From a virus (taxonomy: Duplodnaviria; Heunggongvirae; Uroviricota; Caudoviricetes): DNA of 9,129 nucleotides. Shown here piece after piece: positions 4,958 through 9,008 of the stretch (within the stretch, counting starts at the first letter, position 1; the number at the start of each line of letters is the position of its first letter). The notes under the pieces were generated by a model, which ran no database searches, was not told the DNA's origin, and saw only the letters and a list, made by a program, of their open reading frames with translations. The position numbers and the translations under genes are program-made. The stretch lies in the IMG/VR virus record IMGVR_UViG_2617270976_000006; one strand, given 5' to 3'.

Positions 4958-5197
4958 ATGGGTAGCATTAACCTGCGTATTGACGATGAACTTAAAGCGC
5001 GTTCTTACGCCGCGCTTGAAAAAATGGGTGTAACTCCTTCTGAAGCGCTTCGTCTCATGCTCGAGTATATCGCTGACAATGAACGCTTGCCGTTCAAACA
5101 GACACTCCTGAGTGATGAAGATGCTGAACTTGTGGAGATAGTGAAAGAACGGCTTCGTAATCCTAAGCCAGTACGTGTGACGCTGGATGAACTCTGA
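4958..5197 (+). CDS. relB: RelB antitoxin (79 aa)
   Basis: Translation MGSINLRIDDELKARSYAALEKMGVTPSEALRLMLEYIADNERLPFKQTLLSDEDAELVEIVKERLRNPKPVRVTLDEL. Its TGA stop overlaps the relE ATG. Confidence 0.97.
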   Translation: MGSINLRIDDELKARSYAALEKMGVTPSEALRLMLEYIADNERLPFKQTLLSDEDAELVEIVKERLRNPKPVRVTLDEL

Positions 5198-5484
5198 TGG
5201 CGTATTTTCTGGATTTTGACGAGCGGGCACTAAAGGAATGGCGAAAGCTGGGCTCGACGGTACGTGAACAGTTGAAAAAGAAGCTGGTTGAAGTACTTGA
5301 GTCACCCCGGATTGAAGCAAACAAGCTCCGTGGTATGCCTGATTGTTACAAGATTAAGCTCCGGTCTTCAGGCTATCGCCTTGTATACCAGGTTATAGAC
5401 GAGAAAGTTGTCGTTTTCGTGATTTCTGTTGGGAAAAGAGAACGCTCGGAAGTATATAGCGAGGCGGTCAAACGCATTCTCTGA
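5197..5484 (+). CDS. relE: RelE toxin, ribosome-dependent mRNA endonuclease (95 aa)
   Basis: Translation MAYFLDFDERALKEWRKLGSTVREQLKKKLVEVLESPRIEANKLRGMPDCYKIKLRSSGYRLVYQVIDEKVVVFVISVGKRERSEVYSEAVKRIL. Confidence 0.97.
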   Translation: MAYFLDFDERALKEWRKLGSTVREQLKKKLVEVLESPRIEANKLRGMPDCYKIKLRSSGYRLVYQVIDEKVVVFVISVGKRERSEVYSEAVKRIL

Positions 5485-5555
5485 ACCAAAGCATGACATC
5501 TCTGTCTCGCACCGAAGGTGACACTTCTGCTTTGCGTTGACAGGAGAAGCAGGCT

Positions 5556-5711
5556 ATGAAGCAGCAAAAGGCGATGTTAATCGCCCTGATCGTCATCTGT
5601 TTAACCGTCATAGTGACGGCACTGGTAACGAGGAAAGACCTCTGCGAGGTACGAATCCGAACCGGCCAGACGGAGGTCGCTGTCTTCACAGCTTACGAAC
5701 CTGAGGAGTAA
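5556..5711 (+). CDS. hokD: HokD (RelF), Hok-family small membrane toxin (51 aa)
   Basis: Manual translation MKQQKAMLIALIVICLTVIVTALVTRKDLCEVRIRTGQTEVAVFTAYEPEE. AGGAG Shine-Dalgarno 9 nt upstream. Too short for the ORF track. Confidence 0.9.
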   Translation: MKQQKAMLIALIVICLTVIVTALVTRKDLCEVRIRTGQTEVAVFTAYEPEE

Positions 5712-5779
5712 GAGACCCGGCGGGGGAGAAATCCCTCGCCACCTCTGATGTGGCAGGCATCCTCAACGCACCCGCACTT

Positions 5780-5810
5780 AACCCGCTTCGGCGGGTTTTT
5801 GTTTTTATTT
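5780..5810 (+). terminator. Intrinsic terminator of the relBE-hokD operon: 7-bp stem AACCCGC/GCGGGTT with UUCG tetraloop, then TTTTGTTTTTATTTT
   Basis: Hairpin and U-tract read directly, about 70 nt after the hokD stop. Confidence 0.8.
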
Positions 5811-5927
5811 TCAACGCGTTTGAAGTTCTGGACGGTGCCGGAATAGAATCAAAAATACTTAAGTAGCGCGCAGGGATAAGAGGGATGGTCCCTTAAAGGG
5901 GAGAGCTAATTATCCGGAAGGATTCTG

Positions 5928-6179
5928 ATGATGAACATCGAAGAACTGCGTAAAATTTTTTGTGAAGATGGCCTCTATGCTGTGTGCGTTGAAAATGGAA
6001 ATCTTGTTAGTCATTACCGCATTATGTGTTTGCGAAAGAATGGGGCTGCGTTAATTAATTTTGTGGATGCTCGGGTCACGGACGGATTTATCTTGCGCGA
6101 AGGTGAGTTTGTCACTTCATTACAGGCATTGAAAGAGATCGGAATAAAAGCTGGCTTTTCTGCTTTTTCAGGAGAATAA
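5928..6179 (+). CDS. rem: Rem, small prophage protein of unknown function (83 aa)
   Basis: Track ORF translation MMNIEELRKIFCEDGLYAVCVENGNLVSHYRIMCLRKNGAALINFVDARVTDGFILREGEFVTSLQALKEIGIKAGFSAFSGE. GGAAGGA ribosome-binding site 5 nt upstream. A possible promoter (TTGAAG, 18 nt, TAGAAT) lies at 5820..5849. Confidence 0.85.
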   Translation: MMNIEELRKIFCEDGLYAVCVENGNLVSHYRIMCLRKNGAALINFVDARVTDGFILREGEFVTSLQALKEIGIKAGFSAFSGE

Positions 6180-6245
6180 ACTCATCTACAATCTTGCGCG
6201 GGGCTGAACTCCCGCTGAGTAACACCGTGCCACCGGAGAAAACCG

Positions 6246-6524
6246 ATGGCACGCAACGCAAAATATTACAATTCTGATAATTCGCCCGTTCTTGCCTGCA
6301 CGCACGGGCGGTATTCTCACGCATTCAAGTCTGAATGGTTCCAGCACCCTCCATGCACTGCAGAACAGGCCGAATGGCTGATTCATTCTTACCGCAGGCG
6401 CGGGTTCGAGGTTAAGAAAGCTCTCAGTCTCGACTATCGGCACTGGATAATCTCTGTCAGGCTGCCTTATTCCGAACGCCCACCACGTGCGTCCCGCACT
6501 TTCCAGCAACGGATCTGGAGGTAA
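6246..6524 (+). CDS. Hypothetical basic protein (92 aa), immediately upstream of and probably coupled to ydfU
   Basis: Track ORF with GGAG ribosome-binding site 6 nt upstream. Its TAA stop (6522..6524) lies inside the GGAGGT Shine-Dalgarno of the ydfU GTG start (6526). No family recognised. Confidence 0.5.
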   Translation: MARNAKYYNSDNSPVLACTHGRYSHAFKSEWFQHPPCTAEQAEWLIHSYRRRGFEVKKALSLDYRHWIISVRLPYSERPPRASRTFQQRIWR

Positions 6525-6525
6525 C

Positions 6526-7575
6526 GTGCGGGTATTACTTAGACCTGTTCTGGTGCCTGAGCTTGGGCTGGTGGTCCTTAAGCCGGGCCGTGAATCCATA
6601 CAGATATTTCATAATCCTCGAGTGCTGGTGGAACTGGAACCAGAAAGCATGCGTAATCTGCCATCCGGAGTCGTTCCTGCCGTTCGCCAGCCGCTGGCGG
6701 AAGACAAAACATTGCTGCCGTTTTTTAGTAACGAACGGGTGATTCGTGCTGCTGGCGGCGTTGGCGCATTGTCCGACTGGCTATTACGTCATGTTACATC
6801 CTGCCAGTGGCCTAATGGCGATTACCATCACACTGAAACAGTCATTCACCGTTATGGTACCGGCGCAATGGTGTTGTGCTGGCACTGCGACAACCAACTG
6901 CGTGACCAGACATCGGAATCACTGGAGCTGCTTGCTCAACAAAATCTGACAGCATGGGTGATTGACGTCATCCGTCACGCAATAAGCGGTACGCAGGAGC
7001 GGGAATTATCTTTGGCTGAATTATCCTGGTGGGCGGTCTGCAATCAGGTGGTGGATGCACTACCTGAGGCTGTATCGCGTCGTTCGCTGGGATTACCAGC
7101 GGAAAAAATCTGCTCGGTGTACCGCGAAAGCGACATCGTACCGGGAGAGCAGACCGCCACCAGCATATTGAAACAACGCACAAAAAATCTTGCACCGTTG
7201 CCTTACGCCCACCAGCAACAAAAATCACCACAGGAAAAGACGGTGGTAAGCATCACCGTTGATCCAGAGTCTCCGGAATCTTTCATGAAGCTGCCTAAAC
7301 GTCGCCGCTGGGTTAAGGAGAAATACACACGTTGGGTTAAGACACAGCCGTGTGCTTGCTGCGGTATGCCAGCCGACGATCCGCATCATCTGATTGGTCA
7401 CGGGCAGGGCGGAATGGGAACAAAAGCACATGATCTCTTTGTGTTGCCTTTGTGCAGAAAGCATCACAACGAGCTGCATACGGATACAGTGGCATTTGAA
7501 GATAAGTATGGCTCCCAACTGGAGCTGATATTTCGTTTTATCGATCGCGCGCTGGCAATTGGCGTACTGGCGTAA
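6526..7575 (+). CDS. ydfU: YdfU, DUF968-type prophage protein with C-terminal Cys/His HNH-like motif (349 aa from the GTG start)
   Basis: Long track ORF 6487..7575. I prefer the GTG at 6526, which has a strong GGAGGT Shine-Dalgarno 4-5 nt upstream and gives the 349-aa length I recall. C-terminus reads PCACCGMPADDPHHLIGHGQGGMGTKAHDLFVLPLCRKHHNELH. Confidence 0.8.
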   Translation: MRVLLRPVLVPELGLVVLKPGRESIQIFHNPRVLVELEPESMRNLPSGVVPAVRQPLAEDKTLLPFFSNERVIRAAGGVGALSDWLLRHVTSCQWPNGDYHHTETVIHRYGTGAMVLCWHCDNQLRDQTSESLELLAQQNLTAWVIDVIRHAISGTQERELSLAELSWWAVCNQVVDALPEAVSRRSLGLPAEKICSVYRESDIVPGEQTATSILKQRTKNLAPLPYAHQQQKSPQEKTVVSITVDPESPESFMKLPKRRRWVKEKYTRWVKTQPCACCGMPADDPHHLIGHGQGGMGTKAHDLFVLPLCRKHHNELHTDTVAFEDKYGSQLELIFRFIDRALAIGVLA

Positions 7576-7588
7576 GTGGAGAACGAGC

Positions 7589-8341
7589 ATGAACCTTGAA
7601 GCCTTACCAAAATATTACTCCCCAAAATCTCCAAAATTGAGCGATGACGCTCCAGCGACAGGCACCGGTTGTTTAACAATTACGGATGTAATGGCAGCGC
7701 AGGGGATGGTGCAGTCGAAAGCACCACTTGGGTTGGCCTTATTTCTGGCAAAAGTTGGTGTTCAGGACCCTCAGTTTGCGATTGAAGGCCTGCTAAATTA
7801 CGCGATGGCACTGGATAACCCGACATTGAACAAATTGAGTGAAGAAATCCGGTTACAGATTATTCCTTACCTCGTGAGTTTTGCCTTTGCTGATTACTCC
7901 AGGTCTGCGGCAAGTAAGGCTCGCTGTGAGCATTGTTCAGGTACGGGATTTTATAATGTATTGCGCGAAGTGGTGAAACACTACAGACGCGGGGAATCTG
8001 TAATCAAGGAAGAATGGGTGAAGGAACTATGTCAGCATTGCCATGGTAAGGGCGAAGCCAGCACAGCGTGCAGAGGGTGTAAGGGTAAAGGGATTGTTCT
8101 GGATGAAAAAAGAACCCGGTTTCATGGCGTACCGGTATATAAGATTTGTGGGCGTTGTAATGGAAACCGGTTTAGTCGTTTACCGACCACGCTGGCACGA
8201 CGTCATGTCCAGAAGCTGGTACCAGACCTGACCGATTATCAGTGGTATAAGGGGTATGCGGACGTCATTGGTAAACTGGTAACAAAGTGCTGGCAGGAAG
8301 AAGCATACGCGGAAGCGCAATTGAGGAAGGTGACGAGATAA
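7589..8341 (+). CDS. quuQ: QuuQ, Q-like late-gene antiterminator (250 aa) with multiple CxxC zinc-binding motifs
   Basis: Translation MNLEALPKYYSPKSPKLSDDAPATGTG...AQLRKVTR. GGAG Shine-Dalgarno before the ATG at 7589. The track start at 7559 would overlap ydfU. Motifs CEHCSGTG, CQHCHGKG, CRGCKGKG and CGRCNG are present. Confidence 0.9.
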   Translation: MNLEALPKYYSPKSPKLSDDAPATGTGCLTITDVMAAQGMVQSKAPLGLALFLAKVGVQDPQFAIEGLLNYAMALDNPTLNKLSEEIRLQIIPYLVSFAFADYSRSAASKARCEHCSGTGFYNVLREVVKHYRRGESVIKEEWVKELCQHCHGKGEASTACRGCKGKGIVLDEKRTRFHGVPVYKICGRCNGNRFSRLPTTLARRHVQKLVPDLTDYQWYKGYADVIGKLVTKCWQEEAYAEAQLRKVTR

Positions 8342-8615: not shown

Positions 8616-8638
8616 GGTAATGACTCCAACTTATTGAT
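8616..8638. repeat. IS1 terminal inverted repeat (insB-proximal end)
   Basis: GGTAATGACTCCAACTTATTGAT at the junction with prophage DNA. Confidence 0.85.
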
Positions 8639-9008
8639 AGTGTTTTATGTTCAGATAATGCCCGATGACTTTGTCATGCAGCTCCACCGATTTTGAGAAC
8701 GACAGCGACTTCCGTCCCAGCCGTGCCAGGTGCTGCCTCAGATTCAGGTTATGCCGCTCAATTCGCTGCGTATATCGCTTGCTGATTACGTGCAGCTTTC
8801 CCTTCAGGCGGGATTCATACAGCGGCCAGCCATCCGTCATCCATATCACCACGTCAAAGGGTGACAGCAGGCTCATAAGACGCCCCAGCGTCGCCATAGT
8901 GCGTTCACCGAATACGTGCGCAACAACCGTCTTCCGGAGACTGTCATACGCGTAAAACAGCCAGCGCTGGCGCGATTTAGCCCCGACATAGCCCCACTGT
9001 TCGTCCAT
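8631..9008 (-). CDS. insB: IS1 transposase InsB frame (normally expressed as an InsAB' frameshift fusion); ATG-delimited part shown
   Basis: Track ORF translation [125 protein letters not shown]. Confidence 0.9.

What the first reader, a model, noticed from the sequence alone, without database searches (positions are those of the whole stretch)
6526..7575. YdfU carries a C-terminal Cys/His cluster resembling an HNH-type nuclease motif, directly upstream of the Q antiterminator
The segment PCACCGMPADDPHHLIGHGQGGMGTKAHDLFVLPLCRKHHNELH has the paired-Cys and His-His spacing typical of HNH or His-Me finger nucleases. It occupies the nin-region slot where lambdoid phages place structure-specific nucleases. 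Its function appears to be unknown.
Basis: partly seen in the sequence, partly recalled or inferred. Interest (0 to 1): 0.35.

Follow-up and report, generated by a model that had tools for sequence, protein, structure and literature searches.

The report
Prophage YdfU: known HNH-type nuclease domain
The Cys/His cluster at the end of the Qin-prophage protein YdfU is a real, strongly conserved HNH (His-Me finger) nuclease domain, but this was already published in 2017, so the finding is correct and mostly ordinary, and the protein's function is still untested.

Summary
ydfU (6526-7575, GTG start behind a GGAGG) ends 13 nt before the Q antiterminator gene. Residues 275-318 carry the quoted Cys/His motif.

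Profile searches place the C-terminal third in His-Me finger families: Pfam DUF968 (E 1e-76), PHROG 96 'HNH endonuclease', near-threshold HNHc_6, and hhalign matches to YbcO (PDB 3G27, E 1e-6) and P1 Ref (E 2e-5). An AlphaFold model (pLDDT 89) shows the beta-beta-alpha core. In 79 distinct homologues from different species, C276, C279, C310, H/C313, H287, H288, D303, H314 and H318 are invariant. dN/dS is 0.08 for this domain.

The assignment is not new: Jablonska et al. 2017 name YdfU in His-Me finger group 7.

New here:
- An N-terminal 200-residue domain carries its own invariant zinc-type cluster (C93, H101, C118, C121) and has no fold match.
- YdfU, YbcO and lambda NinG never co-occur. YdfU has RusA nearby in about half of the loci and a Q-type gene directly downstream in about 80%.
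- P1 PdcB is a relative that has lost the catalytic histidines.

Most likely YdfU is a metal-dependent DNA endonuclease of the phage early recombination/replication module. It is silent in K-12. No activity has been shown.

The parts
6526..7575 (+). ydfU coding sequence (349 aa, GTG start, TAA stop)
   Evidence: ORF and sequence. RefSeq annotation of the identical gene. Homologue N-termini align at residue 1. dN/dS 0.11.
6517..6521 (+). Shine-Dalgarno GGAGG, 4 nt before the GTG start, lying inside the end of the upstream ORF
   Evidence: Read directly from the sequence.
6526..7125 (+). N-terminal domain (residues 1-200), family-specific, with no Pfam family over residues 1-159 and no fold match
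   Evidence: AF2 pLDDT 89, pTM 0.71. Foldseek against PDB and BFVD gives no significant hit. phrog_11007 covers residues 2-134. dN/dS 0.12.
6802..6903 (+). N-terminal Cys/His cluster (residues 93-126: C93, H101, C118-W-H-C121-D-N..R126) on a predicted beta-hairpin plus helix; a probable structural zinc site
   Evidence: C93, H101 and C118 are invariant and C121 is 78/79 in 79 homologues. H/C exchange at positions 101 and 121 in more distant relatives. Strands 105-110 and 113-118 and helix 119-125 in the model.
7126..7257 (+). Variable, largely disordered linker (residues 201-244)
   Evidence: pLDDT below 50 for residues 225-237. Length-variable and gap-rich in the alignment. Highest dN/dS of the three segments, 0.18.
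7258..7572 (+). C-terminal His-Me finger (HNH) domain of the YbcO/DUF968 type (residues 245-349)
   Evidence: Pfam DUF968 covers residues 160-346, E 1e-76; HNHc_6 E 6e-6. phrog_96 and phrog_131 'HNH endonuclease'. hhalign to YbcO: prob 91%, E 1e-6. hhalign to Ref: E 2e-5. Strands 285-288 and 306-309 and helix 311-319.
7348..7479 (+). Inferred zinc ligands C276, C279, C310, H313; inferred catalytic set H287, H288 (general base), D303, H314, H318
   Evidence: All invariant in 79 homologues, with position 313 H or C. H288 aligns with the YbcO histidine (H32) that PMC4999995 superimposes on the catalytic His of His-Me nucleases.
6246..6524 (+). Conserved upstream partner ORF (92 aa, phrog_1212, unknown function); its stop lies 1 nt before the ydfU start
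   Evidence: Directly upstream in 78 of 79 related viral loci. Detected by phmmer in 27 of 80 diverse genome loci. PHROG hit E 2e-35, no Pfam hit.
7589..8341 (+). Q-type late antiterminator gene (ydfT/quuQ), 13 nt downstream
   Evidence: Pfam Antiterm E 4e-54, phrog_127. A Q-type gene directly follows YdfU homologues in 61 of 77 diverse loci.

Best explanation
YdfU is a two-domain protein of the early-right (nin) region of lambdoid phages. Residues 245-349 form a His-Me finger (HNH) nuclease domain homologous to the DLP12 protein YbcO and, more distantly, to the P1 nuclease Ref. A structural zinc is held by C276, C279, C310 and H313. The beta-beta-alpha active site has H288 as general base. 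H287, H314 and H318 (with D284/D285) hold the catalytic metal, and D303 takes the place of the 'N' of HNH. Residues 1-200 form a separate domain, so far specific to this family, with its own four-ligand zinc-type site (C93, H101, C118, C121). This domain most likely supplies substrate or partner recognition. The protein would be made from the delayed-early transcript as the last gene (or last but one, before RusA) ahead of Q. It would cut or nick DNA during phage replication and recombination, probably branched or RecA-bound intermediates, complementing the Holliday-junction resolvase RusA. In this window (a Qin-type cryptic prophage) the gene is intact but transcriptionally silenced. Shown: homology, fold prediction, residue conservation, purifying selection, gene context. 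Inferred: metal binding, nuclease activity, substrate, role in recombination.
For: HNH assignment:
- Pfam DUF968 E 1e-76; HNHc_6 26.3 bits against a cut-off of 26.6; RecA_dep_nuc E 0.004.
- PHROG 96/131/22514/7370 'HNH endonuclease'.
- hhalign of YbcO against the C-domain profile: prob 91%, E 1e-6, 75 columns. Ref: prob 77%, E 2e-5.
- AF2 model pLDDT 89 with strand-strand-helix at 285-288, 306-309 and 311-319.
- The top Foldseek hits, although not significant, are HNH proteins: type I-E HNH Cascade, IscB, Cap5, ScoMcrA.

Conservation:
- All ligand and catalytic residues are invariant in 79 homologues.
- dN/dS is 0.077 for the C-domain and 0.12 for the N-domain.

Context:
- RusA abuts YdfU in 41 of 53 close viral loci and lies within 2 kb in 43 of 80 diverse loci.
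- RusA is present in the nin regions of SfV, mEp390, YeP3, EPP-1 and 118970_sal3.
- YbcO sits in the same place, directly before RusA, in 63 of 63 loci.
- NinG/Rap never co-occurs with YdfU.

Literature:
- PMC5714182 places YdfU in His-Me finger group 7 and proposes a recombination/repair role.
- PMC4999995 predicts that YbcO is a nuclease.
- PMC9160355 reports one of the strongest Rho terminators upstream of ydfU in K-12.
Against: - No member of the DUF968/DUF1364 group has a demonstrated activity.
- Neither the PDB sequence search nor Foldseek gave a significant match, so the structural support rests on a predicted model and on profile alignments.
- RusA is absent from 37 of 80 diverse loci, from this window, and from the 48.7-kb Qin-like phage record PhiR42_1. 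The link to Holliday-junction processing is therefore not obligatory.
- The P1 relative PdcB has lost H287, H288, H314 and H318 while keeping the N-terminal cluster, and it is non-essential (PMC10695390). The family's shared function may therefore not need catalysis.
- The close-relative context samples are near-identical prophages, not independent observations.
Confidence: 0.55

Rival explanations
1. YdfU is a non-catalytic zinc-finger DNA-binding or regulatory protein. The HNH fold is kept as a binding module and the conserved function resides in the N-terminal domain.
For: The P1 PdcB subgroup keeps the N-terminal C..C-W-H-H-D-N cluster and the C-terminal zinc cysteines but has lost all four catalytic histidines. 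The N-terminal cluster is at least as conserved as the C-terminal one in distant relatives. A homologue is annotated as a 'phage transcriptional regulator' (PMC5714182). The gene always sits next to the late regulator.
Against: In the YdfU lineage itself, H287, H288, D303, H314 and H318 are invariant across 79 homologues down to 48% identity. The C-domain has the lowest dN/dS. This is hard to explain without catalysis.
Confidence: 0.15
2. YdfU is a host-directed or competitor-directed nuclease (superinfection exclusion, host DNA degradation, or the restriction half of a phage methyltransferase/nuclease pair) rather than a recombination enzyme.
For: DNA methyltransferase genes lie within 6 kb in 52 of 80 diverse loci. 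They are the immediate upstream neighbour in three of the four RusA-negative loci whose neighbours were scanned. The window carries other accessory 'moron' cargo (relBE, hokD) close by.
Against: Methyltransferases are about as frequent in NinG loci (43 of 80), so the link is not specific. There is no hit to any PADLOC defence model. This window has no methyltransferase gene next to ydfU.
Confidence: 0.12
3. YdfU is a selfish homing-type HNH endonuclease that has spread among lambdoid phages.
For: HNH homing endonucleases are common in phages (general knowledge). The site before RusA/Q is occupied alternatively by YdfU, YbcO or nothing.
Against: The syntenic position is stable across many genera at 38-58% identity. 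Both domains are under strong purifying selection. There is no intron or intein association. A conserved upstream partner ORF is present. The match to the rem-ydfU-Q segment is present in 4924 of 5426 complete E. coli genomes, which is not a sporadic distribution.
Confidence: 0.08
4. YdfU is the terminase-associated HNH protein needed for cos cleavage and packaging, as in HK97 gp74.
For: It is an HNH protein in a cos-type lambdoid phage (general knowledge of the HK97 system).
Against: It lies in the early region upstream of Q, far from the terminase genes. SfV and Vibrio phage Cla each carry a separate small HNH gene at the position next to the terminase or genome end.
Confidence: 0.03

Closest known systems
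YbcO of prophage DLP12 (Pfam DUF1364, PDB 3G27; His-Me finger group 7 of Jablonska et al. 2017)
   Same: Homologous HNH/treble-clef domain over 75 columns at 31% identity. Both hit phrog_131. Same genomic place: directly upstream of RusA and near Q. Both are experimentally uncharacterised.
   Different: YbcO is the 96-aa domain alone. YdfU adds a 200-residue N-terminal domain and a linker. YbcO has A-H where YdfU has H-H and D where YdfU has the last His. HMMER does not connect the two; only profile-profile comparison does.
Ref of phage P1 (Pfam RecA_dep_nuc, PDB 3PLW), a RecA-dependent HNH nuclease
   Same: The C-x-x-C ... H-H ... P-L-C-R-x-H-H core aligns with E 2e-5 and 33% identity over 55 columns. 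Both are phage recombination-associated HNH proteins.
   Different: The Pfam score of 17.8 is below the cut-off of 26.9. The flanking regions are unrelated. RecA dependence of YdfU is untested.
NinG/Rap of phage lambda (Pfam NinG), a branch-specific HNH-type endonuclease
   Same: A His-Me finger protein encoded in the nin region upstream of Q. YdfU and NinG are mutually exclusive in every locus examined.
   Different: There is no detectable homology beyond the C-x-x-C knuckle and no Pfam NinG hit. NinG loci lack RusA (0 of 56), whereas YdfU loci often have it.
PdcB of phage P1
   Same: Full-length homologue (26% identity over 94% of the length) with the same two-domain layout and the same N-terminal cluster. 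It is also the gene directly before the late-gene activator (lpa), downstream of a toxin-antitoxin pair.
   Different: The four catalytic histidines are replaced by Y, I, Q and E, and the Gly-rich loop is deleted. It is reported as non-essential and of unknown function (PMC10695390, PMC10067587).
HNHc_6 (PF16784) Orf-HNH fusion proteins of Listeria and Staphylococcus phages (Curtis et al. 2014)
   Same: The HNH core is similar (E 6e-6, 0.3 bit below the cut-off). Both have a recombination-gene context.
   Different: The N-terminal domain of YdfU shows no similarity to lambda Orf/NinB or to YbcN.

Membership tests
His-Me finger / HNH superfamily | beta-beta-alpha-metal core | tested here: met
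   The AF2 model (pLDDT above 90 in this region) has strands 285-288 and 306-309 followed by helix 311-319. This is a prediction only; Foldseek hits to HNH proteins were not significant.
His-Me finger / HNH superfamily | Conserved catalytic histidine at the end of the first strand, plus metal-binding His/Asn/Asp on the helix | tested here: met
   H288 and H287, D303, H314 and H318 are invariant in 79 homologues. H288 aligns with the YbcO histidine equated with the catalytic His in PMC4999995.
His-Me finger / HNH superfamily | Metal-dependent nuclease activity | not testable with these tools
   No experimental data were found for YdfU, YbcO or PdcB.
Pfam DUF968 (PF06147) | Score above the curated gathering threshold | tested here: met
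   256.8 bits against a cut-off of 27.8, residues 160-346, full model length.
His-Me finger group 7 (DUF968 + DUF1364, type structure YbcO 3G27) | Detectable homology to YbcO, and a prophage context next to RusA, Q or antirepressor genes | tested here: met
   hhalign prob 91%, E 1e-6. Q lies directly downstream in the window. RusA and Q are adjacent in relatives. YdfU is named as a member in PMC5714182.
NinG/Rap (PF05766) | Profile match to the NinG family | tested here: not met
   No Pfam NinG hit at E up to 1. hhalign aligns only 13 columns around C-x-x-C.
RecA-dependent nuclease Ref (PF16786) | Score above the gathering threshold | tested here: not met
   17.8 bits against a cut-off of 26.9. 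The HNH core is related (hhalign E 2e-5), but this is not membership.
RecA-dependent nuclease Ref (PF16786) | Cleavage dependent on RecA filaments | not testable with these tools
   Requires biochemistry.
HNHc_6 / Orf-HNH fusion (PF16784) | Score above the threshold, and an Orf-like N-terminal domain | tested here: not met
   26.3 bits against 26.6, matching only model positions 123-184. Lambda Orf and YbcN against the N-domain profile give E 0.35 and 0.29.
Terminase-associated HNH (HK97 gp74 type) | Gene adjacent to the terminase and portal genes | tested here: not met
   ydfU lies upstream of Q in the early region. In PhiR42_1 the terminase gene lies about 7 kb downstream. SfV and Cla have separate HNH genes at that position.
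Known anti-phage defence systems (PADLOC) | Match to a defence-system protein model | tested here: not met
   Only a spurious PglZ hit at E 0.078.

The most novel reading that the evidence does not exclude
The group-7 HNH proteins (short YbcO, long YdfU) are the missing partner of RusA. In this reading, 'HNH + RusA' is a two-enzyme alternative to the single enzyme NinG/Rap for processing D-loops and junctions in lambdoid phages. The N-terminal domain of YdfU would be a new zinc-binding fold (possibly a very old, degenerate duplicate of the HNH knuckle) that directs the nuclease to branched or RecA-coated DNA, Ref-like.
Probability: 0.2. Interest if true: 0.5.

Novelty: already known. Interest (0 to 1): 0.2.

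Why it matters
ydfU is one of the uncharacterised 'y' genes of E. coli K-12. The 2.6-kb rem-ydfU-Q segment has matches in 4924 of 5426 complete E. coli genomes, often several per genome, including Shiga-toxin phages. Knowing that it encodes an apparently intact HNH nuclease with a second conserved zinc-type domain gives a direct experimental handle: an H288A mutant and assays on branched DNA. The pattern of alternative modules (NinG, or YbcO plus RusA, or YdfU with or without RusA) suggests how lambdoid phages assemble their recombination toolkits. None of this overturns current views, and the central point (that this is an HNH domain) is already published.

Tried and rejected
1. PDB sequence searches with the protein and with a 38-sequence profile found nothing usable.
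2. Foldseek of the full model against the PDB gave no hit with E below 0.9. HNH proteins head the list but are not significant.
3. Foldseek of the N-domain alone against PDB and BFVD gave nothing. BFVD did not return phage YdfU homologues either, so these negatives are weak.
4. Internal duplication (the N-terminal 'LCWHCDNQLR' knuckle as a degenerate copy of 'LCRKHHNELH'). hhalign of the N-domain against the C-domain gives 88 collinear columns but E 0.029 and probability 2%. Ref matches the N-terminal motif over 13 columns only. Ten N-domain fragments hit no Pfam HNH family. Inconclusive, so not claimed.
5. An Orf-like N-domain, as in HNHc_6 proteins: rejected.
6. Restriction-modification-like pairing with neighbouring methyltransferases: rejected as non-specific.
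7. Defence-system membership: no PADLOC hit.
8. Apparent fusions of the N-domain to tail-fibre or tip domains in the protein database look like assembly chimeras and were ignored.
9. The alternative start at GTG 6487 (the older 362-aa annotation) was rejected from homologue N-termini and the Shine-Dalgarno position.
10. Rfam and promoter/terminator scans of the surroundings added nothing.
11. A literature search for 'YbcO' returned only superconductor papers.
12. The search for related loci with the 38-sequence alignment failed for lack of a conserved stretch and was repeated with a narrower alignment.

Full report
**Where the window comes from.** The window is a Qin-type cryptic lambdoid prophage of Escherichia coli. 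The segment 5800-8400 is 99.9% identical to K-12 derivatives such as C600. There RefSeq annotates dicA, dicC, flxA, relB, relE, hokD, rem, a hypothetical 92-aa gene, ydfU and ydfT (Q) in the same order. Pfam confirms RelB, RelE, Hok, the DicA repressor and, at the right end, an IS1 transposase fragment.

**Checking the observation.**
- ydfU runs from GTG 6526 to TAA 7575 (349 aa).
- GGAGG lies at 6517-6521, inside the last codons of the upstream ORF, whose stop is 1 nt before the GTG.
- The mechanical ORF list offers an earlier GTG at 6487 (362 aa). Homologues from many species begin with Met exactly at the 6526 position, and the first 18 residues are conserved and confidently modelled as strands. 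The stated coordinates are therefore right.
- The quoted peptide is residues 275-318 (nt 7348-7479).
- The Q gene starts 13 nt after the stop and is a Pfam Antiterm / phrog_127 protein.

**What the C-terminal cluster is.**
- Pfam gives DUF968 at E 1.4e-76 (residues 160-346). It also gives HNHc_6 at 26.3 bits (cut-off 26.6) and RecA_dep_nuc at E 0.004.
- PHROGs gives phrog_96 'HNH endonuclease' over the full length (E 4e-170) and three further HNH families over residues 256-327.
- NCBIfam has no model.
- HMMER against PDB sequences finds nothing, even with a profile.
- Profile-profile comparison does find relatives. YbcO of DLP12, the protein of PDB entry 3G27, aligns to the C-domain profile with probability 91%, E 1e-6, 75 columns and 31% identity. 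P1 Ref, the RecA-dependent HNH nuclease of entry 3PLW, aligns over the core with E 2e-5. Lambda NinG shares only the C-x-x-C knuckle.
- An AlphaFold2 model built on 150 relatives has mean pLDDT 89.4. It shows strand 285-288, strand 306-309 and helix 311-319, the beta-beta-alpha arrangement.
- Foldseek of the whole model against the PDB gave no significant hit. Its best matches are HNH-containing proteins: type I-E HNH Cascade, IscB, Cap5 and ScoMcrA.

**Roles of the residues.** These follow from the alignment with YbcO and from what is known of colicin-type HNH sites; they are inferred, not shown.
- C276, C279, C310 and H313 would hold a structural zinc.
- H288 would be the general base. PMC4999995 equates the YbcO histidine with which it aligns to the catalytic His.
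- H287, H314 and H318 would bind the catalytic metal.
- D303 stands where HNH proteins have Asn.

**Conservation.**
- In 150 representatives of clusters at 50% identity the key positions are kept in about 80-90% of sequences that cover them.
- In 79 distinct homologues taken from one genome per bacterial species (48-99% identity, median 52%), every one of these residues is invariant. Position 313 is either H or C, as expected for a zinc ligand.
- Against 61 diverged E. coli prophage copies, median dN/dS is 0.11 overall, 0.12 for residues 1-200, 0.18 for the linker and 0.077 for the HNH domain.
- Two informative exceptions appear in distant relatives. A Vibrio subgroup has lost two of the zinc cysteines but keeps the catalytic set. 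The P1 PdcB subgroup keeps the zinc cysteines but has replaced H287, H288, H314 and H318 by Y, I, Q and E.

**What was already known.** Jablonska et al. 2017 (PMC5714182) list PF06147 with 'prophage-derived proteins YbcO, YdfU' as His-Me finger group 7. They name YdfU (NP_416078), note RusA, Q and antirepressor neighbours, and propose a role in recombination and repair. Curtis et al. 2014 (PMC4118853) describe a zinc-finger HNH motif in what was then DUF968. Kaur and Subramanian 2016 (PMC4999995) predict a nuclease function for YbcO. RefSeq phage records already call SfV, mEp390, P1 and D6 homologues 'HNH endonuclease'. No paper found reports an experiment on YdfU, YbcO or PdcB function. P1 pdcB is scored non-essential (PMC10695390). 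In K-12 a very strong Rho-dependent terminator lies upstream of ydfU (PMC9160355). The finding is therefore correct but not new.

**The rest of the protein.**
- Residues 1-200 fold with confidence both in the full model and alone (pLDDT 88.9, pTM 0.71). A poorly conserved, partly disordered segment of variable length (residues 201-244) joins them to the HNH domain.
- This N-domain has no Pfam family over residues 1-159, only phrog_11007. It has no significant structural match in the PDB or BFVD.
- It contains a second Cys/His cluster, S-C93-Q-W...Y-H101-H...L-C118-W-H-C121-D-N-Q-L-R, on a predicted hairpin (105-110, 113-118) followed by a helix (119-125).
- C93, H101 and C118 are invariant and C121 is kept in 78 of 79 homologues. 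In more distant relatives positions 101 and 121 switch between H and C, the usual signature of metal ligands. This is most simply a second structural zinc site.
- Its layout and the similarity of L-C-W-H-C-D-N-Q-L-R to L-C-R-K-H-H-N-E-L-H suggested an old internal duplication. The test is not significant (hhalign E 0.029, probability 2%), so I do not claim it.
- The domain is not Orf-like.

**Gene context.**
- In 80 viral contigs carrying close relatives (82-99% identity), the 92-aa ORF is directly upstream in 78 of 79. RusA abuts YdfU downstream in 59 of 75, Q follows directly in the other 16 (as in this window), and NinG is never present.
- With equal flanks the three HNH types separate cleanly. 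YdfU loci have RusA abutting in 41 of 53. YbcO loci have RusA abutting in 63 of 63. Lambda-type NinG loci have RusA in 0 of 56. The three types never share a locus.
- These samples are near-identical prophages and not independent, so I repeated the analysis on 80 loci from species-representative genomes. RusA lies within 2 kb in 43 of 80, mostly upstream with 0-2 genes between, as in SfV, mEp390, YeP3, EPP-1 and 118970_sal3. It is absent in 37 of 80. NinG and YbcO are absent in all 80.
- The most constant neighbour is a late antiterminator. A Q-type gene starts within 250 nt downstream in 61 of 77 loci and after RusA in 3 more. It belongs to at least four sequence families: PF03589-like, PF06530, DUF1133 and PF06323.
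- In P1 the homologue pdcB is likewise the gene directly before the late activator lpa.
- Methyltransferase genes are frequent nearby (52 of 80) but equally so in NinG loci (43 of 80). No restriction-modification link is indicated.
- The rem-ydfU-Q segment has matches in 4924 of 5426 complete E. coli genomes, with a median of two places per genome.

**Interpretation.** The best-supported reading is a metal-dependent DNA endonuclease. It would be expressed at the distal end of the delayed-early operon and belong to the phage recombination/replication toolkit. A family-specific zinc-binding domain would provide substrate or partner recognition. The HNH domain identity is near certain. Catalytic competence of YdfU itself is likely, given the invariance of the full catalytic set. 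The substrate and the functional tie to RusA are inferences from context and are weakened by the many RusA-less loci. Rival readings are listed with their tests: a non-catalytic binding protein, a host- or competitor-directed nuclease, a homing endonuclease, and a packaging HNH. The last is contradicted by gene position and by separate HNH genes next to the terminase or genome end in SfV and Cla.

**Verdict.** The residual interest lies in the uncharacterised N-terminal domain, the alternative-module pattern with NinG and YbcO, and the fact that no member of this widespread group has ever been assayed.

Noticed in passing
window 6802-6903 (YdfU residues 93-126): A second Cys/His cluster (C93, H101, C118, C121, D122) lies in the N-terminal domain. 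It is invariant in 79 homologues and sits on a predicted hairpin plus helix. It is not covered by any Pfam family, and the domain has no fold match in the PDB or BFVD.
   Followed up: yes
window 6246-6524: A 92-aa ORF of unknown function (phrog_1212, no Pfam hit) ends 1 nt before the ydfU start. It is directly upstream of YdfU in 78 of 79 related viral loci and is also present at 42% identity in a Klebsiella phage. It may be a functional partner.
   Followed up: partly
L004 4962-6005 (phage P1 pdcB) compared with window 4958-8341: P1 PdcB is a full-length YdfU relative that has lost all four catalytic histidines. The P1 gene order phd-doc-pdcA-pdcB-lpa parallels relB-relE-hokD-rem-orf-ydfU-Q here: toxin-antitoxin genes, then the YdfU-type gene, then the late-gene activator.
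   Followed up: partly
L093-L252 (viral contigs) and L087 7085-7734 (DLP12): In close relatives, lambda NinG, YbcO and YdfU never share a locus. YbcO always has RusA abutting (63 of 63) together with YbcN. NinG loci never have RusA (0 of 56) but have NinB/Orf (55 of 56). YdfU loci have neither Orf nor YbcN.
   Followed up: yes
L263, L290, L309, L332 and other genome loci, just downstream of the YdfU homologue: The gene after the YdfU homologue is a late antiterminator from at least four different sequence families (PF03589-like, PF06530, DUF1133, PF06323). The adjacency to 'a Q' survives replacement of Q itself. Some loci seem to have a DUF1133 gene and then a second Q-type gene about 1.8 kb further on.
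   Followed up: partly
window 8631-9008, minus strand: An IS1 transposase (InsB, Pfam DDE_Tnp_IS1 E 7e-74) lies about 290 nt beyond the Q gene, where K-12 C600 has cspF and cspB. This copy of the prophage therefore carries an IS1 insertion or rearrangement to the right of Q.
   Followed up: partly
window 6487-6525: The older 362-aa annotation of YdfU (quoted in the P1 record as P76162, 362 aa) starts at GTG 6487. That start overlaps the upstream ORF and is not supported by homologue N-termini.
   Followed up: yes
proteins P0148, P0189, P0190, P0156 (protein database): Database proteins join the YdfU N-domain to tail-tip, tail-fibre or glycine-rich domains. These look like assembly or gene-calling chimeras between prophage regions rather than real architectures.
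   Followed up: partly
alignment A1, Vibrio subgroup (L005 4950-5954, P0164, P0177, P0225): Vibrio-phage relatives have lost the second and third cysteines of the C-terminal zinc site but keep H-H, D and H..H. The structural zinc therefore seems dispensable for the fold in that lineage.
   Followed up: no
L255 (Escherichia phage PhiR42_1, 48.7 kb): A phage record from E. coli ECOR13 has the Qin gene order (dicA/dicC-type immunity, flxA, relBE, hokD, rem, ydfU, Q, csp genes, lysis, terminase), with YdfU 98.8% identical. A full-length Qin-like phage record therefore exists and could be tested for inducibility and used for genetics.
   Followed up: no
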